Of a stretch of 64,000 nt of DNA, positions 1,908 through 20,954 are shown one piece after another; within the stretch, counting starts at the first letter, position 1, and each line of letters begins with the position of its first letter. The DNA is from an uncultured Candidatus Saccharibacteria bacterium (GTDB lineage Bacteria; Patescibacteriota; Saccharimonadia; CAZBQI01), in assembly GCA_964494105.1 (NCBI GenBank), contig CAZBQI010000001.1:67126-131125 (forward strand), given 5' to 3'. Below the pieces are notes generated by a model. It was not told the DNA's origin. It ran no database searches and saw only the letters and a program-made list of their open reading frames with translations. The position numbers were made by a program, and so were the translations under genes.

Positions 1908-2451
1908 TATCCTGCACAACCACATTAGCGACACTCTCAGCATCAGCTAAAATATGTTCGTCCGGCTGGGGCCCGCCGTTGCTGATAATTAACCAAACAT
2001 TGCTCTTTAGTACGTTTAATTGGCCGAGCTCCGGGTTCCAAAAAGCCATTTCACCAATACCGGTTACTTCTTGGGCACCTTCGGGCACTGGATCGAATTG
2101 CGCCTGGTTGCTTTCGGCACCAGCTTCGGTTTTAGGTGAGCGGGCCAAAACGCTAGCGGTTTTAATGCCGGATACCGTACCGGTGTCGTAAGTATATGTA
2201 CAACTACTGACTGTCACATCATCATTACTGGCTGCTGTTTCGCCACTTTCGCCTTTCGTAGTGGTGCTACCTAAAATGGCTTGAGCTTCTTCAAGGGTGA
2301 AGATTTCGCAAGCATCGATTATCTGAAAATTTTGAGTGACTTGTTCGTTCTGCACAGTCTCTTGCGGATTTGGCTTGAAAATCAACCACCCAGTAATCCC
2401 CAAAGTGACAATTATTAACGTGACTACAATTATTGTTAAGGATTTCTTCAT
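1900..2451 (-). CDS. hypothetical N-terminally anchored secreted protein
   Basis: The ORF track starts it at 2553. The internal ATG at 2451 (MKKSLTIIVVTLIIV...) gives a canonical signal-anchor, and the extension would overlap the divergent neighbour. End overlaps the convergent upstream ORF. Confidence 0.4.
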   Translation of the reverse strand: MKKSLTIIVVTLIIVTLGITGWLIFKPNPQETVQNEQVTQNFQIIDACEIFTLEEAQAILGSTTTKGESGETAASNDDVTVSSCTYTYDTGTVSGIKTASVLARSPKTEAGAESNQAQFDPVPEGAQEVTGIGEMAFWNPELGQLNVLKSNVWLIISNGGPQPDEHILADAESVANVVVQDIN

Positions 2452-2524
2452 AAACACCCTTTTTCTTAATACATTCAGTGTAACAAATGATTTAAGAAAC
2501 AAAGTAGGCTGTATAATATTACCA

Positions 2525-5557: not shown

Positions 5558-8500
5558 ATGGCAAATAAGAGGCACGGACTTAGTACTCGCATTACGCAAT
5601 ACTTTATTGAGCATTCCCGTATTACCGTAATCGCGCTCGCGACATTAGTAACTTTTGGTATCATTTCACTGCTAACCCTAAAGACCAGCGGTTTTCCTAG
5701 CCCAGAAGTTAACTTTGTAGTTATTAACACAGCTTATCCTGGTGCGTCTTCGTCGACAGTGCTGAAGGATGTGACAAAACCAATCGAATCTAGCATTAAG
5801 CAAGTTGACGGGGTTAAATCGTATTCTTCACAGAGTCTTGATAATTTCTCTATCGTTACAGTAAACATTGATGAATCGGCTAATGCAGATGCCGTTAAGG
5901 CTAAAATTGATTCCACCGTGCGCTCGGTAGCATTGCCGGAAACCGCTAAAGACCCAGAGGTAGCCACACCAAAAATATCTAACGACGAGTACAGTTACGC
6001 AATTGTTAGTAAGAATGGCGACATCCAAACGGCTTATCAGGCGACAGATATACTACGCAAGAAGCTCGAGCAAGATCCGGCGGTCATTGCGGTTAATGTG
6101 GCCGGCAAACTAAAACAAGAAGTAGTTGTTCAGTTGGATGCAGCCAAGCTAAACGCAGCCGGTCTTACACAAGAAGAAGTTAGCAATCAGTTAAAGACTT
6201 GGGGTCTAGCTATACCTGCAGCCGAAAACGCTAACTTTAGCGCCAAAAACTACAACATCGTGTTAACTCTGAGTGGTAGTAGCCTCGAGGAACTGCAGAA
6301 TCTCATGATTGCCAGCCAAAGTGCTCCGTTTGGGGTAAAGCTTTCGCAGGTTGCGGATGTTGGGACCATGTTTAGCTTAGAAGATCAAGCAGACGATGTA
6401 GTCGGTTTTCGTAGCAATGGTGAGGCTAATGTAGAAAAGTCGGTAATCTTTGGGATTGATGTAGATGACAACGCCAACCTAAGCAAGTATGACCCCAAAC
6501 TGCAAGATACTCTAACAAAATATTTCGATCCGGATGCGGCCTCGCATGCAGAGCTAACGCCAGCTGAGCGCGAGCTTTTTGACCAAGTTGAATTAGTTGA
6601 TGTGTATAACACCAACACCGATAATCAGCGTCAGATTCAGGAAGTTTTGGCCGGTTTAGCTGGCGAGAAGTGGGGAATACCGGTTATTGGCTGGATTGGC
6701 TTCGCTTTTGGCGCTATTCAGTTGGTGTTTATTTTTATGATGATTCTGGTCAGTTGGCGAGCAGCCATCATCGCGGCAATTGCCATTCCGTTAAGTTTCT
6801 TTTTCTCGACGATTACGTTGCTGCTAACGGGTAACGACTTAAACACCTTAACGCTGTTTTCACTGGTGTTGGTGATTGGCTTAGTGGTAGACCCGGCCAT
6901 TGTGGTATTAGAGGTTATTCAACGCTACATAGATAAGGGCGAAAAAGGTAAGCAGGCGGTGCTGTCGGCAATTGATGATATTGGCTACGGATTATTTATA
7001 GCGGTTCTAACGTCAATTCTGGTGTTCATTCCATTTGGGGTTGTATCAGGTATTTTTGGTGCCATCATTGCCTATATTCCCCTCACTATTATTCCGGCTT
7101 TAATTGGTTCCTACATAGTGCCGCTAATCTTTCTGGCCTGGTTTGGTAGCAAGATTCTAAAGCGCCGACCAGGCAAGTCGCAAGATGAAGAAAAAAACTT
7201 GTGGCGTAGCGCTCGCTGGATGATCAAAACTAATCGTCGTTTACTAAATCTCGGAGTTTTGCCGCGAATTGGTATTATCATTGTTTCGCTTGTCTTGCCG
7301 TTTGTTGTAGCTGGTGTCTATTTGGGAAGTGGCCAAGTCAAAATGGTACAGTTTTCGCAACCCGAAGACGGTGAGTTTTTGCAGATGGTGGTGGCTAAGT
7401 ATCCACAAGCCTCTGCTATTACTACCGAGGCTAATGCCAAGCAACTGCTAAGCGAAATCATGAAAAACCCGAACGTGGAGTATGTTGCGCCAATCTATAG
7501 CCAAGGTCCCACAAACGTTAGCTACTTCATTAAGCTTAAGGACCCTAGTGAGCGCAAAGGCAATACGGCCAGTGAAATTGCCGATAATTTTAATCATGTT
7601 TTTGAAAATTCAAATGTAGATGATGTTTTCTTTGACGTTAATGTAAGCACGCTTAGTCCAGGGCCACCGAATGCAATATTCCCAATTAGCATTGGTATAA
7701 AAAGCCAAGACCTCAATATTCAATCCCAAGTAGCTGGTGATGTAACAAAGATACTCAATCAAATGTGCCATAGCGATAGTGGCTTTAGCGTAAATTCTAA
7801 TTGCTCAGATGAAAACAAAGTGGTTGTAAAAATAGATAATGGCCAAGGTGCTCAGGCCAATAAATTTATCGAAGTGCGGTTGGATCGGTCTAAACTATTG
7901 ATGAGTCCAGTTAACCCAATTGCTTTGCGTGAGCAGCTGGCAAGCGTATACCAGCTAAATAGTGGCGAGGAATTAGCTAAGCTCCAAAGTGGAAACGAAC
8001 AGCTGCCAATTATAATCGCGCAAAATAATCAGAAACCGGCGAGCATAAATCAGTTACAGGCAGTGCCAGTTTTGACACTAACTGGGCAGAGTGTGCCACT
8101 TGGTCAGATTGCGGATGTGCGCGAGGTGGAAAGCCCGGGCAGTATTCGACAAGTTGATGGCGAGGCAGTTGGTGTAGTTACGGCCAAAGTACAACCCGAA
8201 TTCTCCGATCAGCAAAATGCAGCACTAGTACAGCAAAAAGTAATTGATGAGTTCAAGAATAACTACAAAGGCAAATATCCTCAGGAATTAGTTGTAGAAG
8301 GCTACAGCGAGGGCGATGTTGCAAGTATTGCTAAAAGTTTTAGTGAGCTAGGCATAGCGCTGCTGCTGGCGATTGTGCTTACGTACTTGTTGTTGGTGCT
8401 GTTCTTCGACAGCCTGAGCATGCCGTTGGTTATCCTGTTTGCCATTCCGTTAACATTTCTTGGCATTTTCCCGGGCCTGGCTTACCTGGCAGGTGGTCAG

Positions 8501-8857
8501 CTAGGTTTTCTGGAGATTATTGGCATTATCATTCTGGTTGGACTGGTAGAAAACGTGGCTATATTCTTAATTGACGCGGCTAACCGTAAGGAGCGTGAGG
8601 GCTGGAAACCAAAAGACGCAATTGCCTATGCCAGTGGTGTACGTTTTCGCCCAATTATTTTGACTAAAGTCATGGCCGTAGCATCGTTAGCACCGCTCGC
8701 AATTCTATCAGAGTTTTATCGTTCACTGTCGGTGGTAATTATTTTTGGGTTGCTAACCTCGGGCATCCTCTCGCTGTTTGTAACGCCAATCCTCTACATT
8801 GCCTTCCAGGATTTCAGCCAATTTATACGCGGTATTGGCGGACGAAAAAAGGCCTAA
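5558..8857 (+). CDS. RND-superfamily (AcrB/MMPL-like) membrane transporter
   Basis: 1099 aa. Two clusters of about 6 TM helices each follow two large extracytoplasmic loops. The N-terminus (YFIEHSRITVIALATL) is RND-like. Confidence 0.75.
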   Translation: MANKRHGLSTRITQYFIEHSRITVIALATLVTFGIISLLTLKTSGFPSPEVNFVVINTAYPGASSSTVLKDVTKPIESSIKQVDGVKSYSSQSLDNFSIVTVNIDESANADAVKAKIDSTVRSVALPETAKDPEVATPKISNDEYSYAIVSKNGDIQTAYQATDILRKKLEQDPAVIAVNVAGKLKQEVVVQLDAAKLNAAGLTQEEVSNQLKTWGLAIPAAENANFSAKNYNIVLTLSGSSLEELQNLMIASQSAPFGVKLSQVADVGTMFSLEDQADDVVGFRSNGEANVEKSVIFGIDVDDNANLSKYDPKLQDTLTKYFDPDAASHAELTPAERELFDQVELVDVYNTNTDNQRQIQEVLAGLAGEKWGIPVIGWIGFAFGAIQLVFIFMMILVSWRAAIIAAIAIPLSFFFSTITLLLTGNDLNTLTLFSLVLVIGLVVDPAIVVLEVIQRYIDKGEKGKQAVLSAIDDIGYGLFIAVLTSILVFIPFGVVSGIFGAIIAYIPLTIIPALIGSYIVPLIFLAWFGSKILKRRPGKSQDEEKNLWRSARWMIKTNRRLLNLGVLPRIGIIIVSLVLPFVVAGVYLGSGQVKMVQFSQPEDGEFLQMVVAKYPQASAITTEANAKQLLSEIMKNPNVEYVAPIYSQGPTNVSYFIKLKDPSERKGNTASEIADNFNHVFENSNVDDVFFDVNVSTLSPGPPNAIFPISIGIKSQDLNIQSQVAGDVTKILNQMCHSDSGFSVNSNCSDENKVVVKIDNGQGAQANKFIEVRLDRSKLLMSPVNPIALREQLASVYQLNSGEELAKLQSGNEQLPIIIAQNNQKPASINQLQAVPVLTLTGQSVPLGQIADVREVESPGSIRQVDGEAVGVVTAKVQPEFSDQQNAALVQQKVIDEFKNNYKGKYPQELVVEGYSEGDVASIAKSFSELGIALLLAIVLTYLLLVLFFDSLSMPLVILFAIPLTFLGIFPGLAYLAGGQLGFLEIIGIIILVGLVENVAIFLIDAANRKEREGWKPKDAIAYASGVRFRPIILTKVMAVASLAPLAILSEFYRSLSVVIIFGLLTSGILSLFVTPILYIAFQDFSQFIRGIGGRKKA

Positions 8858-11453: not shown

Positions 11454-14400
11454 ATGTCTAAGCCAAAACAATCAAACGCGCCCAAGAGCAATCTTAAAGT
11501 TCCTGATAATTCGCCGGTTACAGGGGCCGATTATTCAAATGCGGTCGGGACGCTACTATTAGAGAATTCAAAAAACAGCGCTCGTTTGCGACGTTGGGGT
11601 CTTTTAATGCTAGGGCTTCAGCTCGCCGGAGCAGCCCTACTAATAGTTACTGGATTGTCGTTCTTTAATACCTACTACAGCCAAAAGAATATCGAAAAAA
11701 TAAAGAAAGACCCACTTGGCGAAGTAAAGATAGATTTCCAAGACATTGCCAAAGGATCGATTGGGTTTGATCAGCTTGATCCAGGCGTTATTACCAAAAT
11801 TGAACAGATAGATCGCACTCTTTTAGGTCAGCAAGGTAAGGTTGGCCCCCAGGGGCCGGCCGGCTCGACAACCGGTTCGGTGATTAGTGTTGGGTCAGGC
11901 GCCGGCCTTACCGGTGGCACAATAACATCGCGCGGCACATTAGCAATTAGCGCACCAACCTGCGCCGCTAATGAACGGCTTAGCTGGACTGGCACGGCAT
12001 TTGCCTGCCAAGCTGTTGCCTCCGGCACTGCCTCCGGCACCAGCCCGATTGTGTTCGATAGCAACACTGGCGATATAAGTTGCCCCACGTGCCTGACTAC
12101 AGTTGGTATTGCGTTTTCGGCAGCAGCCGATAGTGGTACAGACCAAAATTTGAATATTGGCGATACCCTAAGCTTAATTGGTGGTAACGGTATTTCTACC
12201 GCTGCGTCACTTAGCAATAACATCACCTTTAGCCTTGTCGATACTGCCGTCACGCCCGGTTTCTATGGTACCACCAGCTCTGTACCGTCGTTTACCGTTG
12301 ATGCCCAAGGCCGAATAACTGCTGCCAGTGATACGGCGATTAGTATTAATGCCAGTGCTATTTCTGCGGGAACTCTATCTGTTACCCGTGGTGGTACCGG
12401 TGTCGATGGCTCAGGTGCTACCAATGGCCAGCTCCTGATTGGTAACGGCAGTGGTTACAGTTTAGCTAATCTTACGGCTACCGGTCCTTTGGGCGTTACC
12501 AATGGTGCCGGCACCATAAACCTCACTTGTGCAACTTGTGTTACGACCAGTGGTAACGGTGCCATTACCAGTTCTGGTGGCGATGTCACATTAAGCGGTA
12601 CTACAACTGGCCGGTTAATTGGCTCGGGCAATGTTAACTTTGATCTATCTTCTACCGGAGTGGTGGGTGCTACCTACGGTTCAGCCAGTTCAGTACCCGT
12701 CTTTACAGTTGATGGTAAGGGCCGCATTACTTCAGCCAGTAATACGGCGATTGCTGGTTTAACTAGTTCTAATTTATCGGGCAGTGCTGCCATCACTAAT
12801 GCCCAGTTACAAAATAGCGTTATCACCTTTAATTCGGGTAACGGCTTAACTGGTGGCGGGGCGGTGTCGCTTGGCGGCAGTACTAGCTTGGCCATTAGTG
12901 CGCCTACTTGTCTTTCAAACGAACGGCTTAGTTGGAGCGGGTCGGCCTTTACCTGCGCAACCGTTGCTGCAGGCGGTAGCCAGGCGGCGAACACCTTTTT
13001 TGCTGGGCCGAGCTCCGGCGGTGCGGCGGCGCCTGGTTTTCGCGGAATTGTTGCAGCCGATTTAGGTACCGGCACAGCTAATTCGCAATCCGTTTTGGCC
13101 GGTAACCAAACTTGGCTGCCATTGCTTGATGGCGGCGGCAAGATTTTAACCAGCCTATTGCCTGCCAGTGGTTTAAATTATCAAGGATCTTGGAACGCTA
13201 ATACCAATACGCCAAGCTTAAGTAGTAGTGGCGGCGGTGGCGTACAGGGCGATTTTTATATTATTGACGTGGCAGGAACAACCTCGATTGATGGTAATAG
13301 CACGTGGAACGTTGGCGACTGGATTCTAAATAATGGCGCAACATGGGATCGGATATCAAATACAAATGCGGTTAGTAGTGTTAATGGTCAAACTGGCGCG
13401 GTAGTACTAGATAGTGATGATGTATCGGAAGGCGTCAGTAACTTGTACTTTACCAATGCTCGTGCCCGCGGGGCACTATCCGGCACCGGGCCGATTAGTT
13501 ACAATTCCGGCACTGGAGTAATTGATTGCCCAACCTGTGTTACCACTAGTGGTAACGGGGATATTGTTTCCGGTACAGGCCTATCAATATCTGGCACAAC
13601 TACTGGACGACTCATTGGTACTGGCAATGTGACTTTTGGCTTGTCGACGGCTGTACCAACAAGTGTAGTAAACGACACCAACGTTACGGGCTCGATTTCG
13701 GCTAATGCTTTGACGCTGGGTTGGACTGGTCAACTATCAACAGCCCGTGGTGGTACCGGTGTCGATGGCTCAGGTGCTACCAATGGCCAGCTCCTGATTG
13801 GTAACGGCAGTGGTTACAGTTTAGCTAATCTTACGGCTACCGGTCCTTTGGGCGTTACCAATGGTGCCGGCACCATAAACCTCACTTGTGCAACTTGTGT
13901 TACGACCAGTGGTAACGGTGCCATTACCAGTTCTGGTGGCGATGTCACATTAAGCGGTACTACAACTGGCCGGTTAATTGGCTCGGGCAATGTTAACTTT
14001 GATCTATCTTCTACCGGAGTGGTGGGTGCTACCTACGGTTCAGCCAGTTCAGTACCCGTCTTTACAGTTGATGGTAAGGGCCGCATTACTTCAGCCTCCA
14101 ACACCGCCATTGCCCTAAACGCCTCTGCCATTACCGCCGGTACCCTCAGTGTTACCCGTGGCGGTACCGGAGTAGATGGTTCCGGCGCCACCAACGGCCA
14201 GCTGTTGATCGGTAACGGTACGGGGTACTCTTTGGCCACGCTAGCCTCATCCGGGCCTATTGGTATTACTAACTCCGCTGGTGGCATTAGTATTGGTTGT
14301 GCAACCTGCCTAACAACCGGTACAACCTTATTTACCGCGGCTGGTGATGTTGGTGTAAACCAAAGCGTGACCCAGGGCCAAACCATTACCTTTATTGGTG

Positions 14401-16385
14401 GCGTTGGTTTAACCACTACAGGTTCTGCTACCCGAAATATGACAATAGATTTGGATAATACCGCCGTCACCCCCGGTTCCTATGGTACTGCTAGTTCAGT
14501 AGGCTCATTTACTGTAGATGCGCAGGGACGAATTATCGCTGCTAGCAACTCATCGATATCTATCAACGCCAGCGCAATTACAGCCGGCACCGGGTCGGTA
14601 TCATTCACTTCTGCAACATCCAATGCAATTTCGCTCGACTCTGGAACAACCGGCGGGATAAATATTGGAACAGGTGCGAACTCGAAGACCATTACCATCG
14701 GTAACACTACCGGTACAACCGGTATTAACATCGACTCCGGTAGCGGTAACATTAATTTGCGTCCTGGTGGTTCCGGGACAACCGCTAATGTCCAAATAGG
14801 TGCTGGCGGGGCTGGCTCGACAACGCCCGATTTATTGGTGCTTGATAGAAAAAGTAGTGCCGGTGACCCTGCCGGTACCAACGGTGCAATGTATTATAAT
14901 GCTAGCTCAAATAAATTCCGTTGTTTCGAAAACTCCACCTGGAGGGACTGTATCAAGGGGTCAATAAACCTTGGTCATGCGGCCACCTACGACACGAACG
15001 AAGCCCTTACTAATGTGGCAGCTTCTCAGGTGACTCTCGGTACGGTATCTGTTACGCCAGCATCGGATACTGGTGATGTCTATGTAACTGGCAACGCGGA
15101 TGTCTATAGTAGCAACAATACCGACCAAACATTTGTATTTACCATAGAAACCGGGTCAACTTGTACCGGTACGACTGTGGCGACAAGGTCATATACAATT
15201 ACTGCATCGAACTCCGCAACGGTAGGCCGTGGCTCACTTGTAGTAAGTGGTATTGTCTCTGACCCCGGTGAGTCTTCGCAGGCATATTCACTCTGCGCAT
15301 CAACTGCAACAGGTGATACCGATGTTCTGAACTGGCGTATCGAAGCATTGGTTATTGAATCAGCAGGTGCTGATGTTGCGGAGATGTATTATACGCACGA
15401 TGATGCCCGGCCCGGCGAAGTTGTAAGTATTGACGGCAGTATGAAGGCTGGTGTTCGTAGATCAAACGGCTCGTACGATCCTATGGTGTTGGGTATTATA
15501 AGCACAAAGCCAGGGTACGTTCTTGCTGATGCTGAGGGGGTCGACCCTACGGCTAGGCCGGTTATACTGGCTCTTGCCGGTCGTGTTCCAGTCAAAGTTT
15601 CGGACGAAAATGGGCCAATAAAGGCTGGCGATGCGCTGACACCATCGTCGATACCGGGCGTGGCTATGAAAGCTACCCAAAACGGCTGGGTACTTGGCGT
15701 AGCCATAGAAGACCAAAAGCCAGGAGCGGGCACCTTGATGACTTTTGTGAATAGATCTTGGTATACAGGGGGCAGTAATAACCCCCCCTCACTGACCGGT
15801 ATGAGTTTAGGCGATGCAGATTTACCTGGCATAAAATCAGCCCAATCCGAAGGTGTAAAGAACGGCTTGCAATCAGAAAATCCGGAGTTGGTTGCTCAAG
15901 CTTTGGGCATTTTAAATGATATTCAAAATACGGTGGTAACCCAGCAAACCCAGCTCAACGCACTTGAAGCTAATCAAGCCAAAGCCAGCTCGAATTCACA
16001 GCAGATTAACCAAGCGATATTTAATGGCGGTATTGTGGCCGGCGATGTAGAGTTCCAAGGCAACGCCACCTTTAATGCTATCGCCACATTCAAGGGTCAG
16101 AGTGTCTTTAAGGGGGGTGCTATATTTGAAGGAGACGTAGCAATTAATGGGCGCGTGAAGTTCGGTGCTAATGGATCGGGCGTGGCAACTGTACCAGCCG
16201 GCGCCACGAGCGTTACAGTTAGCTTTACTAGCCCGTATGACGGACGGCCAATTGTAAACTTAACTCCTATAGATTACGACGGGAAATTCAAACTTAGTGG
16301 CGCATCGGCCGGTGGCTTTACGATTGTACTAGATTCGCCCGTGCCAAGCCCGGTAGAGTTTAACTGGTTAGCGAGTGAAAATTAA
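11454..16385 (+). CDS. giant (1643 aa) membrane-anchored repeat fibre protein (tail-fibre-like beta repeats)
   Basis: A cytoplasmic N-terminus of about 50 aa is followed by one TM helix (LLMLGLQLAGAALLIVTGLSFF). A short Gly-X-Y run follows (GQQGKVGPQGPAG). There are then many Gly/Thr/Ser-rich repeats carrying recurring CPTC / CATC motifs, including a protein-level repeat present in two exact copies. The C-terminal part is non-repetitive, with a coiled-coil-like segment (LNALEANQAKASS). Confidence 0.7.
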   Translation: MSKPKQSNAPKSNLKVPDNSPVTGADYSNAVGTLLLENSKNSARLRRWGLLMLGLQLAGAALLIVTGLSFFNTYYSQKNIEKIKKDPLGEVKIDFQDIAKGSIGFDQLDPGVITKIEQIDRTLLGQQGKVGPQGPAGSTTGSVISVGSGAGLTGGTITSRGTLAISAPTCAANERLSWTGTAFACQAVASGTASGTSPIVFDSNTGDISCPTCLTTVGIAFSAAADSGTDQNLNIGDTLSLIGGNGISTAASLSNNITFSLVDTAVTPGFYGTTSSVPSFTVDAQGRITAASDTAISINASAISAGTLSVTRGGTGVDGSGATNGQLLIGNGSGYSLANLTATGPLGVTNGAGTINLTCATCVTTSGNGAITSSGGDVTLSGTTTGRLIGSGNVNFDLSSTGVVGATYGSASSVPVFTVDGKGRITSASNTAIAGLTSSNLSGSAAITNAQLQNSVITFNSGNGLTGGGAVSLGGSTSLAISAPTCLSNERLSWSGSAFTCATVAAGGSQAANTFFAGPSSGGAAAPGFRGIVAADLGTGTANSQSVLAGNQTWLPLLDGGGKILTSLLPASGLNYQGSWNANTNTPSLSSSGGGGVQGDFYIIDVAGTTSIDGNSTWNVGDWILNNGATWDRISNTNAVSSVNGQTGAVVLDSDDVSEGVSNLYFTNARARGALSGTGPISYNSGTGVIDCPTCVTTSGNGDIVSGTGLSISGTTTGRLIGTGNVTFGLSTAVPTSVVNDTNVTGSISANALTLGWTGQLSTARGGTGVDGSGATNGQLLIGNGSGYSLANLTATGPLGVTNGAGTINLTCATCVTTSGNGAITSSGGDVTLSGTTTGRLIGSGNVNFDLSSTGVVGATYGSASSVPVFTVDGKGRITSASNTAIALNASAITAGTLSVTRGGTGVDGSGATNGQLLIGNGTGYSLATLASSGPIGITNSAGGISIGCATCLTTGTTLFTAAGDVGVNQSVTQGQTITFIGGVGLTTTGSATRNMTIDLDNTAVTPGSYGTASSVGSFTVDAQGRIIAASNSSISINASAITAGTGSVSFTSATSNAISLDSGTTGGINIGTGANSKTITIGNTTGTTGINIDSGSGNINLRPGGSGTTANVQIGAGGAGSTTPDLLVLDRKSSAGDPAGTNGAMYYNASSNKFRCFENSTWRDCIKGSINLGHAATYDTNEALTNVAASQVTLGTVSVTPASDTGDVYVTGNADVYSSNNTDQTFVFTIETGSTCTGTTVATRSYTITASNSATVGRGSLVVSGIVSDPGESSQAYSLCASTATGDTDVLNWRIEALVIESAGADVAEMYYTHDDARPGEVVSIDGSMKAGVRRSNGSYDPMVLGIISTKPGYVLADAEGVDPTARPVILALAGRVPVKVSDENGPIKAGDALTPSSIPGVAMKATQNGWVLGVAIEDQKPGAGTLMTFVNRSWYTGGSNNPPSLTGMSLGDADLPGIKSAQSEGVKNGLQSENPELVAQALGILNDIQNTVVTQQTQLNALEANQAKASSNSQQINQAIFNGGIVAGDVEFQGNATFNAIATFKGQSVFKGGAIFEGDVAINGRVKFGANGSGVATVPAGATSVTVSFTSPYDGRPIVNLTPIDYDGKFKLSGASAGGFTIVLDSPVPSPVEFNWLASEN
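12385..12737 (+). repeat. 353-bp perfect direct repeat, copy 1 (inside the giant gene)
   Basis: Identical by eye, base for base, to 13744-14096. Encodes RGGTGVDGSGATNGQLLIGNGSGYSLANLTATGPLGVTNGAGTINLTCATCVTT... Confidence 0.9.
13744..14096 (+). repeat. 353-bp perfect direct repeat, copy 2 (inside the giant gene)
   Basis: Identical to 12385-12737. The offset is 1359 bp, a multiple of 3. A third copy diverged at synonymous sites starts near 14157. Confidence 0.9.
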
Positions 16386-16457: not shown

Positions 16458-18830
16458 ATGAAACAGAGAACATCTTGGGCACACCCTGTTAAGAGATTGC
16501 CATTTTCTAATCGCTTAAATCTATTAGAATTTGACAACAAGGTTGTAGCAGCCGAATTTTTGCGTAAAAAGAAAATTGGCCAAAACACCTACGAATTTAA
16601 ATTTGCATTGCATCGTAGCATTAAATATGTGCCTGGCCAATATGTTTGGCTTAATCTGCCGCAATTGCGGGCAACAGATAAGAAAGGCGCACGGCGAGCA
16701 ATGTCTATCGTGTATGTGGGGGCTGGCAATAAAGAGATTTCTATCGCAATGAGAATAAGCGATAGTAGTTTCAAGAAAGCTGCATTGCGGCTTACTTCGG
16801 GACAACAGGTAGAAATTATCGGGCCTAATGGTTCTTCTTTTTGCTTGCCGGAAAATGGAAAACAATCAGTTGTGCTTATTGCTGGCGGCACAGGTATTGC
16901 TCCGTTTGTAAACTTAGTACAAAATGAAGAATATAAAAAATCGAAAAGGACAATTCACCTTTTCTATACAGATGAGGGTGGCAATAGTGCGCCATATTTA
17001 GGTTTACTTAACAAAATAAAGTTAAACAACTATCACTTAAAATTTAGCCAAGTGCCTTTTGCTGAAAATGATTTTGCAGGAATTCATGAGTCGATGCGAG
17101 CAATATATTATCTAAGCGGACCTCAGAAATTTGTTGATTTCTACTACCGATTACTTAGCGGTATGGGAATTGCAAAATCAAGCATGAGGTTTGAAAATTT
17201 CTACCCAAGTAATGATGTTGTAGAGCTTATGCAACAGCTGTTTCGCGATGGCGATGCAATAAAACCCGTACCTGGAGATACCAAATTAGCCATTCAGCGG
17301 CGCGATATTTTGCTATCGGCAATACAAAGCTCATCACACCACATAGTCATCACTGACATTAATGGCGTTATTGTACTGGCAAACAAAGCTGCAGAAAGAA
17401 TAACAGGTTTTAGTTTTTACGAAATGGAAGGGCAAACACCACGCCTGTGGGGAGGGCTAATGCCTGTAAATTTCTATTCCAAACTATGGAACAGTAAGCT
17501 ACACGGGCTAACAATTGACGAAGAGATTGTTAACCGGCGTAAAGACGGATCGCTTTACTTGGTTATGTCGCACATTTCACCGATAAAAAATAAGCATGGC
17601 AAGGCGATAGGGTTTATTGGCACTGAAGAGGACATTACCCTGAACCGTCAAAAAGAAATCGAATCAAACACCATAGCTGAACAACTGGAGTCGACATTAT
17701 TAGGGATTGCCGAAGGTCTAATAATCACTGACGGTAAAGGAAGAATACAGCGGGTAAATGCAGCAGCTTGTAGCATGTTAGGTTATAGCCAAAAAGAGCT
17801 AGTTGGTAAAAATGCGAATGATGCTATTGAAATGCTTGATTCGAAAGAAGTCCCGATACCAAAAAATGAACGGATCACCAGCAGAGTAATCTCAAGTTCG
17901 GCGCCAGTAGTAACTGAAGATATTGCAAACAGCATATATTACCGAAAAAAGGACGGAACTAAGTTTCCCGTATATGTTGCGGCTTCACCAGTAATAGAAA
18001 ACAGTCGAATGGTTGGTTCTGTAGAAATATTTAGAGACATAAGTCGAGATAAAGAAATTGACATTGCAAAATCAGAGTTCGTATCTTTAGCTTCGCATCA
18101 GTTGCGTACTCCACTCTCGGCCATTAATTGGAATGCGGAACTCTTAATGGGAGGAGATGCGGGTAAGTTAACCGCTGACCAAGCGAACTTCGTAAAGGAA
18201 ATTTACAGTAGTAGTCAAAGAATGGTGGATCTAGTCAGGTCATTACTAAACGTCTCTCGTATCGAGCTTGGTACACTTGGTTTTGATCCATCGCCACAAA
18301 ATGTAAACGAATTGATAAAGGCAATTATGGCAGACGAAAGACTGCTTCGTGATAAAGAAGAAATTTCAGTTAAACTCAATCTTTCAAAAATACCTAGGAT
18401 ACCTGTCGATCCAAGACTAGTTACGCTACTAGTGCAAAATCTTGGTAGTAATGCTATTAAGTACTCGAAACATGGTGGCGAAATTATTGTGACAAGTGAA
18501 TATCTGGCAAATCCTTCAAAAAGAAAGAATTTTAGAAAAAAAGGTATAAAAATCCCAAGTGTATATTTGTGTTTTAAAGATAGTGGTATTGGTATTCCAA
18601 AAGAACAGCAAAAAAATATATTTTCAAAAATGTTCCGAGCTGATAACGCCCAGGAGCAAGTAACTGATGGTAATGGTTTGGGCTTGTATATGGTTAAGGG
18701 GATTGTCGAGAGCATTGATGGCAAAATATGGTTTGAATCTAGCGTAAAAAATGGCACAAGTTTCCACGTATTATTGCCACTTGAAGGCTTGGCCAAAAAG
18801 GATTCAGGTATAAAACTACTTGATGTATAA
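16458..18830 (+). CDS. soluble sensor histidine kinase: ferredoxin-reductase-like FAD/NAD(P) module + 2 PAS + HisKA + HATPase
   Basis: The N-terminus has an FNR-type FAD-binding signature (RAMSIVY, i.e. RxYS-like) and the NAD-binding motif GGTGIAPF. Two PAS-like regions follow. The H-box is SHQLRTPL, the N-box NLGSNAIKYS, and the G-boxes DSGIGIP and GNGLGL. No TM helix. Confidence 0.8.
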   Translation: MKQRTSWAHPVKRLPFSNRLNLLEFDNKVVAAEFLRKKKIGQNTYEFKFALHRSIKYVPGQYVWLNLPQLRATDKKGARRAMSIVYVGAGNKEISIAMRISDSSFKKAALRLTSGQQVEIIGPNGSSFCLPENGKQSVVLIAGGTGIAPFVNLVQNEEYKKSKRTIHLFYTDEGGNSAPYLGLLNKIKLNNYHLKFSQVPFAENDFAGIHESMRAIYYLSGPQKFVDFYYRLLSGMGIAKSSMRFENFYPSNDVVELMQQLFRDGDAIKPVPGDTKLAIQRRDILLSAIQSSSHHIVITDINGVIVLANKAAERITGFSFYEMEGQTPRLWGGLMPVNFYSKLWNSKLHGLTIDEEIVNRRKDGSLYLVMSHISPIKNKHGKAIGFIGTEEDITLNRQKEIESNTIAEQLESTLLGIAEGLIITDGKGRIQRVNAAACSMLGYSQKELVGKNANDAIEMLDSKEVPIPKNERITSRVISSSAPVVTEDIANSIYYRKKDGTKFPVYVAASPVIENSRMVGSVEIFRDISRDKEIDIAKSEFVSLASHQLRTPLSAINWNAELLMGGDAGKLTADQANFVKEIYSSSQRMVDLVRSLLNVSRIELGTLGFDPSPQNVNELIKAIMADERLLRDKEEISVKLNLSKIPRIPVDPRLVTLLVQNLGSNAIKYSKHGGEIIVTSEYLANPSKRKNFRKKGIKIPSVYLCFKDSGIGIPKEQQKNIFSKMFRADNAQEQVTDGNGLGLYMVKGIVESIDGKIWFESSVKNGTSFHVLLPLEGLAKKDSGIKLLDV

Positions 18831-18839
18831 TCGAAAACT

Positions 18840-19229
18840 ATGGATGCCAGGCTGAAAAGCACGATTCTTATTGTTGAAGACGAAATCCCTTTACAAAAAG
18901 TAGTTGGGTTTAAGCTCAAGAATGCCGGGTTTAATGTGATTTCTGCAAGGAAAGCCGAAGAGGCAATAAACTATATTAAGACTGCCGAATCAATTGACTT
19001 AGTTTGGCTAGACCATTACTTAATCGGTACGAAAACCGGATTAGATATTGTAAAAATAATCAAAAACAGCTCCGAGTTCAAACATATACCAATTTTTGTT
19101 GTAACCAATTCAGCTGACCTTAATAAGAAGCACGCATATATTAAATTTGGAATTGAAAAATATTTTATTAAATCAGACTTACGCCTAGATGAAGTAATAG
19201 ATGCTATTAAAGCCTCTCTAAAAGAATAG
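18840..19229 (+). CDS. stand-alone CheY-like receiver domain protein
   Basis: 129 aa with ILIVEDE ... LVWLDHYL and no output domain. Starts 10 nt after the kinase stop. Confidence 0.7.
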   Translation: MDARLKSTILIVEDEIPLQKVVGFKLKNAGFNVISARKAEEAINYIKTAESIDLVWLDHYLIGTKTGLDIVKIIKNSSEFKHIPIFVVTNSADLNKKHAYIKFGIEKYFIKSDLRLDEVIDAIKASLKE

Positions 19230-19286: not shown

Positions 19287-19682
19287 ATGGAACCTAATGA
19301 CAAAGGCAAAAAGAAAATACTAGTTGTTGAGGATGATAAATCTGTAAATGCAGCGATGAGTGCCGGCCTGACAAACAATGGCTATTTAGTTACAGCAAAA
19401 ATGAATGGCGCTGAGGGAATAGAAGCTACAAATACTAATGATTTTGATGTAATTATTCTCGACCTTACTATGCCAAAGATGGACGGGCTTGATGTGCTAA
19501 AAACACTTAAAGCCAATCCCAAAACGAAGCAAATACCAGTTATTATCGCGACTAATAACACGCAAACTGAGCTGGTTTATGAATGTATTGCCGCCGGCGC
19601 GCGCGATTACTTTATAAAGTCTGACATTACACTCATACAGCTATGCGCAGCTATCGACAAAGCTTTAGCTAGCATTGAATAA
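19287..19682 (+). CDS. stand-alone CheY-like receiver domain protein
   Basis: 131 aa with ILVVEDD ... VIILDLTMPKMDG ... K, and no output domain. Confidence 0.8.
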   Translation: MEPNDKGKKKILVVEDDKSVNAAMSAGLTNNGYLVTAKMNGAEGIEATNTNDFDVIILDLTMPKMDGLDVLKTLKANPKTKQIPVIIATNNTQTELVYECIAAGARDYFIKSDITLIQLCAAIDKALASIE

Positions 19683-19780: not shown

Positions 19781-20215
19781 ATGGACTTCGACACTGAAAT
19801 TGAGTTGAATAAACCCTTAGGAATTGTGTGGGCGTTTTTAATTGATCCTGCCAATATGCATCTTTGGCTAGGTGAGGTCGTTAGGTTTGAACAAAAGGGT
19901 GGCACTAAGGGATTAGCTGGCTTTCGTTGCCGTTATTTTTTTAGCAACGGCTATGTTGATCAACGAATTCAAACAAGTGATATGCACAAGAAATTAGTTA
20001 TGACACTCGAGAACGATAGTTTCAATACCAATATGAAAATGGTATTTAACGAACAAGGTGGCAAGACAAGTATTAAGATCATGAGTAATACGGAAATTGA
20101 TGTTCCGGGCGCGGCGTTTGCCGGAAATGCCATACGCTCGGCAATTGACACCAAGATGTCTACATATCTGAATCGGCTACAAATGGCAATTGAACAACAA
20201 AAAACTACCCCCTAG
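19781..20215 (+). CDS. SRPBCC (Bet v1-like / polyketide-cyclase-like) family protein
   Basis: 144 aa. The N-terminal pattern (LNKPLGIVWAFLIDPANMHLWL) is typical of SRPBCC ligand-binding proteins. Confidence 0.4.
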   Translation: MDFDTEIELNKPLGIVWAFLIDPANMHLWLGEVVRFEQKGGTKGLAGFRCRYFFSNGYVDQRIQTSDMHKKLVMTLENDSFNTNMKMVFNEQGGKTSIKIMSNTEIDVPGAAFAGNAIRSAIDTKMSTYLNRLQMAIEQQKTTP

Positions 20216-20235
20216 AAAGAGGGTAGTTTAGTTTT

Positions 20236-20573: not shown

Positions 20574-20954
20574 GTGACTGATGACGAATATAAAGAGAAA
20601 TTAACACCAGAGCAATATCGGGTTTTGCGAAAAAAAGGCACAGAATTGCCGTTTACGGGAAAGCTATTAAATAATAAAGAATCCGGCATATATACTTGCG
20701 CTGCCTGTGGACACGAGCTATTTAGTAGTGACACCAAGTTTGAAAGTGGCAGTGGATGGCCTAGTTTTACCGACCCGGCCAACCGCGAACACGTAAAACT
20801 AAAAGTGGACAAGAGCTTAGGGATGGTACGAACAGAAGTTTTGTGTGCAAATTGTGGCTCGCACCTTGGGCATGTATTCGATGATGGTCCTGGTAAGAGT
20901 GGCCAAAGGTATTGCATTAATTCTGTGTGTTTAGATTTTAGGCCAAAGAGCTAA
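20574..20954 (+). CDS. msrB: peptide-methionine (R)-S-oxide reductase MsrB
   Basis: Two CxxC zinc motifs ([25 protein letters not shown]) and the RxE catalytic region. GTG start. Confidence 0.85.

What the first reader, a model, noticed from the sequence alone, without database searches (positions are those of the whole stretch)
16458..18830. Histidine kinase whose sensor is a ferredoxin-NADP-reductase-type flavoprotein module
The N-terminal 260 aa or so carry the two FNR-family hallmarks: an RxYS-like FAD-binding motif (RAMSIVY) and the GGTGIAPF NAD(P)-binding motif, on a beta-barrel plus Rossmann layout. Two PAS domains and a complete HisKA/HATPase core follow (H-box SHQLRTPL, G2 GNGLGL). 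There is no TM segment.

An intact pyridine-nucleotide and flavin oxidoreductase module fused directly to a kinase is rare. It suggests the kinase reads the NAD(P)H/NAD(P)+ pool or cytosolic electron flux rather than an external ligand.
Basis: partly seen in the sequence, partly recalled or inferred. Interest (0 to 1): 0.7.

Follow-up and report, generated by a model that had tools for sequence, protein, structure and literature searches.

The report
Redox kinase with built-in flavin reductase
This gene encodes a soluble bacterial signalling kinase whose sensor end is an NAD(P)H-flavin reductase-type module joined to a flavin-type PAS domain; it belongs to a large, unstudied family in the tiny "candidate phyla radiation" bacteria and may show how such cells measure their internal reducing power.

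Summary
ORF 16458-18830 (+, 790 aa) has no TM segment and contains an FNR-type beta-barrel/Rossmann module (aa ~26-250), two PAS domains and a complete HisKA/HATPase core. Two single-domain receiver genes follow.

Three points change the interpretation.

(1) The fusion is not rare. The module opens a populous, generically annotated family, mostly from Patescibacteria (CPR). I retrieved 185 cluster representatives, 104 of them with a kinase core. In split loci an FNR-PAS gene directly precedes a kinase gene, and a receiver gene follows in three of four.

(2) The module is not textbook-intact in this protein. Pfam misses FAD_binding_6 and NAD_binding_1 is sub-threshold. The flavin-stacking aromatic is Met (RAMS), a recurrent minority variant. 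Homologues pass both Pfam thresholds.

(3) The first PAS domain was overlooked. It belongs to the NifL/MmoS FAD-binding class, and its Trp, Asn and Tyr flavin contacts are invariant in 91 of 91 family members.

My best reading is a two-flavin redox sensor. The reductase module uses NAD(P)H to set the redox state of the PAS flavin, and that state gates the kinase. Cofactors and electron transfer are inferred, not shown.

I class it as a new variant of flavin-PAS redox kinases. Interest is moderate to high.

The parts
16458..18830 (+). Complete ORF (790 aa incl. stop): soluble FNR-like / PAS-A / PAS-B / HisKA / HATPase sensor histidine kinase
   Evidence: ORF list. Pfam domains. Identical protein on independent contigs. 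AF2 full-length model with pLDDT 90.6.
16458..16532 (+). N-terminal extension, aa 1-25; no predicted structure
   Evidence: pLDDT below 50 for aa 1-17. Most family members start near aligned position 22-26. The closest homologue P0009 has a similar extension.
16533..16832 (+). FNR-type flavin-binding beta-barrel subdomain, aa ~26-125. It includes R80-A-M82-S83 (the RxYS-type motif with Met at the stacking position) and S103-S-F-K106 (family consensus S-G-Y/F-K).
16695..16715 (+). RAMSIVY, aa 80-86: flavin-site motif (Arg, Ser) with the Met82 variant
   Evidence: In one search it aligns with 'HPFS' of the SpNOX dehydrogenase domain.
16863..17207 (+). NAD(P)H-binding Rossmann subdomain, aa ~136-250. 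It contains GGTGIAPF (aa 143-150), Y170-T-D172-E173 at the end of beta2, S220-G-P (the 'CGP' position) and the terminal F245-E-N-F248-Y249-P250.
   Evidence: Sub-threshold Pfam NAD_binding_1 hit at aa 140-192. Family conservation of G143/G144/G146/P149/F150/G221/E246. The family profile aligns to the very C-terminus of BenC and T4moF.
17184..17207 (+). MRFENFYP, aa 243-250. It is equivalent to the C-terminal 'FEKF'/'FDRFF' of BenC/T4moF (the flavin-shielding aromatic) and here forms the junction to the linker.
   Evidence: Alignments. Conservation.
17208..17309 (+). Linker, aa 251-284: short helix 253-261, a loop, then the N-cap helix of PAS-A from aa 276
   Evidence: Secondary structure of the AF2 models. 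Linker length varies across the family.
17310..17648 (+). PAS-A, aa ~285-397: NifL/MmoS-class, predicted FAD-binding PAS. Key residues are T299, G303, P328, R329, Y340, W344, N359 and E390.
17670..18047 (+). PAS-B, aa ~405-530: probable cofactor-free transmitter PAS
   Evidence: Pfam PAS/PAS_9 at aa 410-529. Nearest PDB sequences are MmoS PAS-B, FixL and WalK PAS. The PAS-B core (aa 418-528) has no His, which I read directly from the sequence.
18066..18269 (+). HisKA/DHp, aa 537-604, with the phospho-acceptor His547 in SHQLRTPL (nt 18093-18116)
   Evidence: Pfam HisKA at 4e-16. Motif position.
18408..18785 (+). HATPase_c catalytic domain, aa 651-776: N-box NAIKYS, G1 DSGIGI, G2 GNGLGL
   Evidence: Pfam HATPase_c at 8e-21. 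Motifs. Foldseek hits to HK853 and WalK.
18840..19229 (+). REC1: single-domain response regulator (129 aa), starting 9 nt after the kinase stop
   Evidence: Pfam Response_reg at 3e-14. The same kinase-REC order occurs in L002 and L012-L015.
19287..19682 (+). REC2: second single-domain response regulator (131 aa)
   Evidence: Pfam Response_reg at 1e-24. A REC-REC pair also follows the kinase in the Woesebacteria split locus L004.
19781..20215 (+). SRPBCC-fold protein (144 aa). It is a possible last gene of the operon; membership is uncertain.
   Evidence: Pfam Polyketide_cyc2 at 7e-6, just below its cutoff. A hairpin lies at 20202-20229. The gene is not conserved in the other family loci.

Best explanation
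The ORF encodes a cytoplasmic sensor histidine kinase. It belongs to a large, uncharacterised family that is mostly found in Patescibacteria.

Its input is a two-part flavoprotein unit. The first part (aa ~26-250) is an FNR-type NAD(P)H:flavin oxidoreductase module of the BenC / flavohaemoglobin / NOX-dehydrogenase kind. The second part, PAS-A (aa ~285-397), is a NifL/MmoS-class PAS domain predicted to bind FAD.

Proposed mechanism:
1. The reductase module takes a hydride from NAD(P)H. Acidic D172/E173 at the end of beta2 suggest NADH.
2. It passes electrons to the PAS-A flavin, either directly or through an exchangeable flavin.
3. O2 or another oxidant re-oxidises the PAS flavin.
4. As in NifL and MmoS, the redox state of the PAS flavin is relayed through PAS-B to the DHp/CA core and switches autophosphorylation of His547.
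5. The phosphoryl group goes to the two CheY-like receiver proteins encoded immediately downstream. These have no DNA-binding domain, so they must act by protein-protein contact.

On this reading the kinase reports the balance between reducing power and oxidant.

Shown here: the domain identities, the folds, the conservation of motifs and contacts, the family, and the gene neighbourhoods. Inferred: that either site binds flavin, the electron transfer between them, the nucleotide preference, the sign of the response, and the targets.
For: FNR-type module:
- PDB sequence hits at 1e-9 for the protein alone and 7e-23 for the family profile, aligned end to end.
- 63 of 73 family members hit NAD_binding_1 and 55 of 73 hit FAD_binding_6. 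The homologues in L002 and L003 pass both curated cutoffs.
- The catalytic-site motifs are under strong constraint: R80 98%, S83 96%, GGxGxxPF 87-99%, GP 96%.

PAS-A as a flavin PAS:
- Its closest solved sequences and folds are all flavin-binding PAS domains.
- It meets the published criteria for FAD-PAS. The F-alpha Trp is the primary determinant, plus an Asn in the NifL cluster (PMC10468136). The NifL contacts are N102, Y83, T41, A45 and W87 (PMC8063818). W344, N359 and Y340 are each 91/91, T299 is 87/91, G303 is 88/91, and R329 (equivalent to MmoS R133) is 91/91.
- PAS-A is the most conserved part of the family.

Functional linkage of the parts:
- FNR-like plus PAS-A is the invariant core, and the kinase is optional.
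- In four split loci the FNR-PAS gene directly abuts a kinase gene, and a REC gene follows in three of them.
- The two-domain core models with pTM 0.82.
- Residues ~270-790 match full-length NifL and LOV-PAS-HK architectures.
- In BenC and T4moF the flavin-shielding C-terminal aromatic is the last residue. Here it is the junction to the PAS linker.
Against: - No cofactor is demonstrated.
- On this particular protein Pfam does not call FAD_binding_6, and NAD_binding_1 is below threshold.
- The stacking aromatic is Met82. G104, T108 and F124 of the family consensus are replaced, a pattern shared only with the closest homologue P0009. Flavin affinity in this member could therefore be weak.
- PAS-A replaces the N5-proximal residues of NifL (E70) and MmoS (H132, R195) with an invariant Pro328 and Glu390. 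NifL's phosphate-binding R80 position is not conserved.
- Linker length varies across the family, which argues against a rigid electron-transfer geometry.
- The precedent that FNR-type enzymes can reduce NifL's flavin in trans (Macheroux et al. 1998) is recalled from memory. I could confirm only that the paper exists, not what it says.
Confidence: 0.45

Rival explanations
1. This is the first reader's version: a pure pyridine-nucleotide sensor. The FNR-type module binds NAD(P)H or NAD(P)+, with or without its own flavin. Binding or flavin reduction causes a conformational change, for example displacement of the F248/Y249 gate. That change passes mechanically through the linker to the kinase. 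PAS-A and PAS-B are cofactor-free transmitters, and no electrons go to PAS-A.
For: The GGTGIAPF nucleotide motif is intact and conserved. The gating aromatic is contiguous with the linker. PAS-A lacks the NifL E70, MmoS H132 and MmoS R195 equivalents. Many PAS domains with flavin-PAS ancestry have lost the cofactor; PMC10468136 discusses PDE8 and KCNH as examples.
Against: A transmitter-only PAS does not explain the invariance (91 of 91) of exactly the residues that contact FAD in NifL and MmoS: Trp, Asn, Tyr and Arg. It also does not explain why PAS-A is more conserved than the reductase module. The flavin-site residues of the reductase module (R80, S83) are conserved as in true enzymes, not only the nucleotide site.
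Confidence: 0.25
2. A regulated or bifunctional enzyme. The FNR-type module would be a working reductase, for example a flavin, ferric, quinone or O2-reducing NAD(P)H oxidase, with a physiological substrate outside the protein. The PAS and kinase parts would either regulate it or simply report its turnover, so the module is not primarily a sensor.
For: Its closest relatives are all electron-transfer enzymes. Standalone modules of 230-280 aa from the same clade exist. One family locus has a cytochrome-b-like membrane protein directly upstream (L013), which recalls the split form of NOX.
Against: The module is always N-terminal to PAS and kinase, which is the usual input position. It has no Fe-S, haem or TM partner domain. 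The cytochrome-b neighbour is seen in only one of about 11 loci. The tight genetic coupling is to kinase and REC genes, not to metabolic genes.
Confidence: 0.12
3. A degenerate pseudo-enzyme in this particular protein. The family module is functional, but the window protein and its sister P0009 have lost flavin binding (F82M, G104S/D, T108A, F124N). In them the domain would serve only as a scaffold or dimerisation element, or bind a different ligand.
For: Pfam falls below threshold on this sequence. There are four substitutions at consensus positions around the flavin site, three of them shared only with P0009.
Against: The protein deviates at 12 of 55 conserved columns and ranks only 33rd most divergent of 145, so it is not an outlier. 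17 of the 18 columns conserved at 90% or more are retained. Met82 recurs in 9 of 150 or 12 of 174 members that otherwise have canonical motifs, so it is a tolerated variant and not decay. The window protein and P0009 are only about 53% identical over the module, yet both keep all nucleotide-site motifs.
Confidence: 0.12
4. An artefact: a chimeric assembly, or a frameshift that joins a reductase gene to a kinase gene.
For: One related locus (L009/L010) shows a 44-nt overlap between the FNR-PAS-PAS ORF and the kinase-core ORF, so fusion and fission boundaries do occur in this family.
Against: The identical 790-aa protein is called on independent Logan and NCBI contigs, and an ENA fragment covers aa 1-363. 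104 homologues carry the same fusion. AF2 models a continuous, confident chain.
Confidence: 0.01

Closest known systems
NifL (Azotobacter vinelandii) redox sensor: PAS1(FAD)-PAS2-H-GHKL
   Different: NifL has no reductase module, and from my own knowledge its physiological reductant is external or unknown. NifL is not a kinase and acts by binding NifA. The NifL E70 and R80 positions are not conserved here (P328; variable). The present protein has a full H-box and cognate REC genes.
MmoS (Methylococcus capsulatus) FAD-PAS sensor kinase
   Different: MmoS has no FNR-type module. From my own knowledge it is a much larger hybrid kinase. MmoS H132 and R195 are replaced here by an invariant Pro and Glu.
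FNR-superfamily reductase modules: BenC, T4moF, MMOR, flavohaemoglobin, NqrF, and the SpNOX dehydrogenase domain
   Different: All of those enzymes deliver electrons to a fused or partner Fe-S, haem or quinone site, and they end at the terminal aromatic. Here there is no Fe-S or haem domain and no TM segment, and the chain continues into PAS domains and a kinase. Position 82 is Met in this protein. The Cys of the 'CGP' motif is Ser.
LOV histidine kinases (Brucella LOV-HK, YF1, EL346)
   Different: The photoactive Cys of the NCRFLQ motif is replaced by Pro328, which is invariant in the family, so LOV-type photochemistry is excluded. LOV kinases have no reductase module.
Aer / AerC FAD-PAS energy-taxis receptors
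   Same: An FAD-PAS domain that reads cellular reducing power, with the conserved F-alpha Trp and the Asn (PMC10468136, PMC9668731). The output goes to CheY-type signalling.
   Different: Aer is membrane-anchored and signals through HAMP and an MCP domain to CheA. Its flavin is thought to be reduced by the respiratory chain. Here the putative reductant-delivering enzyme is part of the same polypeptide.

Membership tests
FNR superfamily (two-domain FAD/NAD(P)H oxidoreductase module; Pfam FAD_binding_6 + NAD_binding_1) | Six-stranded beta-barrel flavin subdomain followed by a Rossmann-type nucleotide subdomain | tested here: met
FNR superfamily (two-domain FAD/NAD(P)H oxidoreductase module; Pfam FAD_binding_6 + NAD_binding_1) | The sequence scores above the curated Pfam thresholds for FAD_binding_6 and NAD_binding_1 | tested here: not met
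   For the window protein, NAD_binding_1 scores 19.2 bits against a cutoff of 22, and there is no FAD_binding_6 hit at E<=0.1. Homologues do pass: L002 scores 29.0/24.1 bits and L003 scores 24.2/42.9 bits. 55 and 63 of 73 members hit the two models at E<=1e-3. Independent homology evidence for the window protein is phmmer at 1e-9 to SpNOX DH.
FNR superfamily (two-domain FAD/NAD(P)H oxidoreductase module; Pfam FAD_binding_6 + NAD_binding_1) | R-x-Y/F-S/T flavin-binding motif | tested here: inconclusive
   R80 and S83 are present, but the aromatic is Met82. The family has F in 139, M in 9 and Y in 1 of 150. Met recurs in otherwise canonical members.
FNR superfamily (two-domain FAD/NAD(P)H oxidoreductase module; Pfam FAD_binding_6 + NAD_binding_1) | G-G-x-G-x-x-P nucleotide-binding motif, and an aromatic at the end of the module | tested here: met
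   GGTGIAPF at aa 143-150. F248/Y249 align with the terminal Phe of BenC and T4moF.
FNR superfamily (two-domain FAD/NAD(P)H oxidoreductase module; Pfam FAD_binding_6 + NAD_binding_1) | Binds FAD or FMN and oxidises NAD(P)H | not testable with these tools
   This needs purified protein: UV-vis spectroscopy, flavin extraction and steady-state assays.
NifL/MmoS/Aer-class FAD-binding PAS domains | Conserved Trp on helix F-alpha, the primary FAD determinant according to PMC10468136 | tested here: met
   W344 aligns with NifL W87 and MmoS W149. It is present in 91 of 91 family members.
NifL/MmoS/Aer-class FAD-binding PAS domains | Asn that hydrogen-bonds the isoalloxazine (NifL N102 / MmoS N164), and for the NifL type also Tyr83 | tested here: met
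   N359 and Y340 are each 91 of 91. The contact list comes from PMC8063818 and PMC9668731.
NifL/MmoS/Aer-class FAD-binding PAS domains | N5-proximal polar residues (NifL E70; MmoS/Aer His and Arg) | tested here: not met
   These positions hold Pro328 (91/91) and Glu390 (90/91) instead. I read this as a distinct subclass, not a loss of function, but that is unproven.
NifL/MmoS/Aer-class FAD-binding PAS domains | Binds FAD | not testable with these tools
   This needs the purified PAS-A fragment.
HisKA-type sensor histidine kinases (two-component systems) | H-box His in a DHp domain, N/G1/G2 boxes in the CA domain, and a cognate receiver encoded nearby | tested here: met
   HisKA at 4e-16 and HATPase_c at 8e-21. 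H547, N-box, G1 and G2 are located. Two REC genes start 9 nt and 456 nt downstream of the kinase stop. Autophosphorylation itself is not testable here.
LOV photoreceptor kinases | Photoactive Cys in the G-x-N-C-R-F-L-Q motif | tested here: not met
   The motif reads G-Q-T-P-R-L-W-G. Pro328 is invariant in the family.
Bacterial NADPH oxidase (SpNOX-type) / ferric-reductase-domain proteins | N-terminal six-helix di-haem transmembrane domain ahead of the dehydrogenase domain | tested here: not met
   There is no hydrophobic segment (maximum KD19 = 1.5). The SpNOX match covers only its DH domain, residues 188-396.

The most novel reading that the evidence does not exclude
The family would be a self-contained NAD(P)H-to-flavin-to-flavin relay. 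A built-in FNR-type reductase keeps a NifL-like PAS flavin poised against oxidation by O2, which makes the kinase a single-polypeptide comparator of reducing power against oxidant. Because the family is so widespread in genome-reduced Patescibacteria, which have few regulators, it could be their main redox or oxygen sensor. It would act through CheY-like receivers on surface, adhesion or pilus functions. It would also give a concrete answer to how cytoplasmic flavin-PAS sensors obtain their electrons.
Probability: 0.3. Interest if true: 0.8.

Novelty: new variant of a known kind. Interest (0 to 1): 0.62.

Why it matters
For flavin-PAS redox sensors such as NifL, MmoS and Aer, the physiological electron donor is either indirect or, to my knowledge, still debated. 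Here evolution has fused, or placed in the same operon, an NAD(P)H:flavin reductase-type module with such a PAS domain, and it has done so hundreds of times. That makes the electron-supply question directly testable in one soluble protein.

It would also add a new class of input to the catalogue of histidine-kinase sensor modules: an enzyme-derived FNR module.

Finally, it gives a first handle on redox or oxygen sensing in Patescibacteria (CPR). These are largely uncultured, fermentative, host-dependent bacteria whose signalling is almost unstudied. In databases the family is labelled only 'hypothetical', 'PAS domain S-box protein' or 'ATP-binding protein'.

Tried and rejected
- A single-sequence indexed search of the N-terminal module found only an identical fragment and weak BenC hits, which suggested an orphan. 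The exhaustive search and the profile searches overturned that.
I repeated it on 73.
- The full-length model in Foldseek was dominated by kinase hits. I made a separate core model to see the reductase and PAS-A matches.
- The AFDB fold library was unavailable.
- Model coordinates are not exposed, so I could not measure the inter-flavin-site distance or the domain interface.
- I could not read Ukaegbu & Rosenzweig 2009 or Macheroux et al. 1998. Further searches did not recover Macheroux's findings from secondary sources. That precedent is therefore marked as recalled from memory.
Its Patescibacteria origin is inferred from family membership and from the nearest species-representative hit, a Saccharibacteria MAG.
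- Rejected readings: a LOV photoreceptor (Cys replaced by invariant Pro); a NOX-type membrane oxidase (no TM segment); a His-ligated haem in PAS-B (no His in the domain core, aa 418-528; FixL similarity is only about 1e-6); a type IV pilus operon in the window (its neighbours are an RND transporter, a YkuD transpeptidase, a giant repeat protein and MsrB).
- The promoter and terminator scan was uninformative. It found fewer promoter-like sites than in shuffled sequence.
Full report
1. THE OBSERVATION

A 790-aa ATG-to-stop ORF lies at exactly 16458..18830 on the + strand. The N-box NAIKYS (665-670) and G1 DSGIGI (708-713) are also there.

Pfam calls two PAS domains (292-396 and 410-529; PAS_9 E=3e-30), HisKA (537-604; 4e-16) and HATPase_c (651-776; 8e-21). 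The most hydrophobic 19-residue window averages only 1.5 on the Kyte-Doolittle scale, and it is the Rossmann beta1 strand, so there is no TM segment.

The same protein is encoded on independent Logan and NCBI contigs, and an ENA fragment covers aa 1-363. Neighbouring genes of the organism recur in further samples. The fusion is therefore real. I consider the observation confirmed.

2. THE N-TERMINAL MODULE

On this sequence Pfam gives only a sub-threshold NAD_binding_1 hit (E=0.002; 19.2 bits against a cutoff of 22) and no FAD_binding_6 hit.

Homology to the FNR superfamily is nonetheless secure:
- phmmer against PDB sequences gives 1e-9 to the dehydrogenase domain of the bacterial NADPH oxidase (8qq5/8qt6). 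It then gives 1e-6 to 1e-5 for the MMO reductase, PyrK, BenC, T4moF and plant-type FNRs.
- A profile of 20 family modules gives 7e-23 to BenC, 7e-22 to T4moF and 8e-20 to SpNOX DH, aligned end to end.
- AlphaFold2 models are confident: full length pLDDT 90.6, core aa 26-400 pLDDT 84.9.
- In Foldseek every one of the top 50 PDB hits is an FNR-type FAD/NAD(P)H module, and the model covers the whole SpNOX DH domain at TM 0.76-0.81.

3. IT IS A FAMILY, NOT A ONE-OFF

A word-indexed search with the single sequence suggested an orphan. An exhaustive phmmer scan of 1.84 billion cluster representatives then found 3,426 hits at E<=1e-3 and 1,103 at E<=1e-10. Most of the top 150 carry the module at the N-terminus of 400-990-aa proteins.

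Among 73 top members, 63 hit NAD_binding_1, 55 hit FAD_binding_6, 66 hit PAS and 42 hit HATPase_c. The homologues in L002 and L003 pass both curated Pfam thresholds.

Across everything retrieved, 185 cluster representatives combine the module with a characteristic 'TPRLWGG' PAS domain. Of these, 104 have a kinase core and 81 do not.

Named members come from Candidatus Uhrbacteria, Woesebacteria, Parcubacteria, Ryanbacteria, Levybacteria, Kaiserbacteria and 'Patescibacteria group'. There are also one Bacteroidia-labelled and one Gammaproteobacteria-labelled MAG. All carry generic names. The nearest species-representative genome hit is a Saccharibacteria MAG (L002, 39% identity) with the same architecture followed by a REC gene. 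Its Patescibacteria origin is an inference.

Full-text searches found no paper describing this architecture. A 2025 review of flavin redox switches does not contain the words 'ferredoxin' or 'reductase' at all.

4. HOW WELL THE REDUCTASE SITE IS KEPT

Across 150 aligned members the catalytic-site hallmarks are strongly conserved:
- R80 in 147.
- Position 82 is F in 139, M in 9 and Y in 1.
- S83 in 145, S103 in 143, K106 in 140.
- G122, P123 and G125 in 142-149.
- G143, G144 and G146 in 138-149; P149 in 131; F150 in 139.
- G221 in 145; E246 in 127.

The terminal F245-E-x-F248-Y249-P motif aligns with the last residues of BenC ('FEKFS') and T4moF ('FDRFF'). From my own knowledge, the terminal aromatic of this enzyme class shields the flavin and must move for the nicotinamide to enter. 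The titles of the SpNOX F397W and F397A structures among the hits fit such a role. In this family that residue is not a chain end. It is the junction to the linker and PAS-A.

The window protein itself has F82M, G104S, T108A, F124N and N172D. Three of these are shared only with its closest homologue P0009. It still deviates at only 12 of 55 conserved columns, ranking 33rd of 145. Met82 recurs in otherwise canonical full-length kinases.

I conclude that the module is under enzyme-like constraint in the family. In this member it is a tolerated variant, possibly with weaker flavin affinity, and not a decayed domain. D172/E173 at the end of beta2 suggest a preference for NADH. That follows the general Rossmann rule and is inference only.

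5. THE OVERLOOKED PART: PAS-A IS A FLAVIN-TYPE PAS

Published criteria are available:
- PMC8063818 lists the NifL contacts N102 and Y83 (hydrogen bonds to the isoalloxazine), T41, A45, E70, W87 and L90 (packing; W87 stacks on the adenine) and R80 (phosphate).
- PMC9668731 lists MmoS T103, G107, H132, N164 and R195.

I aligned 91 family PAS-A domains with NifL and MmoS. The results were:
- W344 (W87/W149): 91 of 91.
- N359 (N102/N164): 91 of 91.
- Y340 (Y83): 91 of 91.
- R329 (MmoS R133): 91 of 91.
- T299 (T41/T103): 87 of 91.
- G303 (A45/G107): 88 of 91.
- The two N5-proximal positions carry family-specific invariants, Pro328 (NifL E70 / MmoS H132) and Glu390 (MmoS R195).
- The NifL R80 position is variable.

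The LOV cysteine position is Pro328, which rules out LOV photochemistry. PAS-A is the most conserved segment of the family. Its E-alpha/F-alpha region is the local pLDDT minimum in both models. That is a weak hint that the region depends on a cofactor for order.

PAS-B resembles MmoS PAS-B, WalK PAS and, distantly, FixL. Its core (aa 418-528) contains no histidine, so I treat it as a transmitter domain.

6. GENETIC LINKAGE

FNR-like plus PAS-A is the invariant core, and the kinase is optional. Architectures range from about 400 aa (FNR-PAS) through about 530 aa (FNR-PAS-PAS) and about 610 aa (FNR-PAS-HK) to about 750-790 aa (FNR-PAS-PAS-HK, as here) and beyond 800 aa.

Where the kinase is missing, it is next door:
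- Woesebacteria L004: FNR-PAS, a 190-aa ORF, CHASE-PAS, PAS-PAS-HK, REC, REC.
- Uhrbacteria L007: FNR-PAS, then PAS-HK 2 nt later.
- Ryanbacteria L009: FNR-PAS-PAS overlapping a HisKA-HATPase ORF, then REC.
- L011: FNR-PAS abutting a VUPS-PAS-HK, then REC.

This fusion and fission pattern argues that the FNR-PAS unit is the dedicated input of a kinase-receiver pathway.

In all six fused loci a REC-only protein of 127-155 aa lies just downstream of the kinase (window, L002, L012, L013, L014, L015). It is directly adjacent in five of them and one gene away in L014. None has a DNA-binding output domain. In the window, REC1 starts 9 nt after the kinase stop and REC2 starts 57 nt after REC1.

7. 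MOST LIKELY MECHANISM

Shown here: a soluble kinase with a reductase-type module, a flavin-type PAS, a transmitter PAS, an intact DHp/CA core and two CheY-like partners. The architecture from PAS-A onward matches full-length NifL (Foldseek 7e-27) and LOV-PAS-HK proteins. The two-domain core models as a compact unit (pTM 0.82).

Inferred:
- The reductase module binds a flavin and oxidises NAD(P)H.
- It reduces the PAS-A flavin, either directly or through an exchangeable flavin. From my own knowledge, Fre and the SpNOX DH domain handle flavin in that way.
- O2 or another oxidant re-oxidises the PAS flavin.
- The flavin's redox state is relayed through PAS-B to the kinase, as in NifL and MmoS.

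From memory, Macheroux et al. (Biochem J 1998) showed that NifL's flavin can be reduced by NAD(P)H in vitro when FNR-type enzymes (E. coli Hmp, spinach FNR) are added. I could verify only that the paper exists, not its content.

I put about 0.45 on this relay model and about 0.7 on the broader statement that the protein is a flavin-based sensor of reducing power or oxidant.

8. RIVALS

I give it 0.25. It fits the intact nucleotide motif and the gate-linker continuity. It does not explain why exactly the FAD-contact residues of PAS-A are invariant.

(b) A working reductase with an external substrate, regulated or reported by the kinase. I give it 0.12. It is supported only by enzyme ancestry, by standalone modules in the clade and by one cytochrome-b neighbour.

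(c) A pseudo-enzyme in this member. I give it 0.12. It fits the failed Pfam test and four substitutions. It is weakened by the non-outlier divergence and by the recurrence of Met82.

(d) An assembly artefact. I give it 0.01, and refute it.

9. COMPARISON AND MEMBERSHIP

The protein works most like NifL and MmoS, which are cytoplasmic flavin-PAS redox sensors. Those proteins have no reductase module, and this PAS-A fails their N5-proximal residue signature. It is therefore a distinct subclass and not a member of either.

The N-terminal module is a structural and evolutionary member of the FNR superfamily. It is nearest to the BenC, flavohaemoglobin, NqrF and NOX-DH branch. This sequence misses the curated Pfam thresholds and the aromatic of the RxYS motif.

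It is not a LOV kinase, because the photoactive Cys is absent. It is not a NOX, because there is no TM haem domain. It meets every sequence criterion for a HisKA-type kinase.

10. NOVELTY AND SCORE

The sequences have been public under generic names, so the gene family is not new to databases. I found no description of an FNR-type module as a kinase input, or of its obligate pairing with a flavin-type PAS.

I class it as a new variant of a known kind, namely flavin-PAS redox-sensing kinases. Interest is 0.62. The architecture would surprise a two-component-system specialist. It turns the old question of who reduces the flavin of PAS redox sensors into a one-protein experiment. It may also be a principal redox sensor of CPR bacteria. 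The score is held back because everything about cofactors and electron flow is still inference, and because this member has a variant flavin site.

11. LIMITS

- No model coordinates were available and the AFDB library was not available.
- The promoter and terminator scan was uninformative.

Noticed in passing
window 11454-16385 (+): A giant 1,643-aa ORF ends 72 nt upstream of the kinase. It has no Pfam match, a higher GC content (~50% against ~44% for the window) and a perfect 300-nt direct repeat (12385-12684 and 13744-14043). It looks like a repetitive surface or fibre protein.
   Followed up: partly
L009 8694-12466; L013 7477-11854; L014 8272-11887; L015 7387-11292: In four other family loci, large Ig-like, fn3, Big_13 or cohesin/dockerin surface-protein genes lie directly downstream of the kinase-REC pair. 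With the window's giant upstream ORF, this hints at a link between the system and cell-surface or adhesion functions. CPR genomes are rich in such genes, however, so it could be chance.
   Followed up: no
L002 2168-5972; L011 2761-5914: Type IV pilus genes (PilC/T2SSF, PilB/T2SSE, prepilin-like proteins) sit immediately next to the family gene in two loci. In L002 they are in the same orientation and in L011 they are divergent. Since the outputs are CheY-like, control of pili or twitching is a candidate output.
   Followed up: no
L004 7247-7819; L009 5432-6004; L003 2576-4222 (C-terminus): A conserved 190-aa protein (a weak PAS domain plus a coiled coil; 47% identical between Woesebacteria and Ryanbacteria loci) abuts the FNR-PAS gene. 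Its C-terminal motif 'LNxxMxGRExKMxxLKxE' also ends the kinase-less FNR-PAS-PAS protein of L003. It may be an adaptor or partner module.
   Followed up: partly
L013 3548-4915: A cytochrome-b-like membrane protein (455 aa; Cytochrom_B_N_2) is encoded 86 nt upstream of the family kinase in one Patescibacteria genome. This recalls a split NOX (haem TM domain plus dehydrogenase domain). It was seen in only one locus.
   Followed up: no
L009/L010 6001-8275: The FNR-PAS-PAS ORF overlaps the following HisKA-HATPase ORF by 44 nt, right at the PAS/DHp boundary. This looks like a frameshifted or recently split version of the fused kinase. The two loci are the same sequence from two samples.
   Followed up: no
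window 19781-20215 and 20574-20954: An SRPBCC-fold protein and methionine sulfoxide reductase MsrB follow the two REC genes. An oxidative-damage repair gene near a putative redox sensor could be meaningful or coincidental. The pairing is not conserved in the other family loci.
   Followed up: partly
window 1-64000: There is no tRNA, rRNA or Rfam family match anywhere in the 64 kb. Nearly all long ORFs are on the + strand, and the cumulative GC skew rises almost continuously, with only slight dips. This is consistent with one long co-oriented replichore segment.
   Followed up: no
window 5558-8857 (+) and 2336-5467 (+): An AcrB-type RND transporter (ACR_tran, E=2e-112) and a 1,043-aa Laminin_G_3/Big_7/Pur_ac_phosph_N surface protein lie upstream. 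An RND pump is somewhat unexpected if the organism is a Patescibacterium.
   Followed up: no
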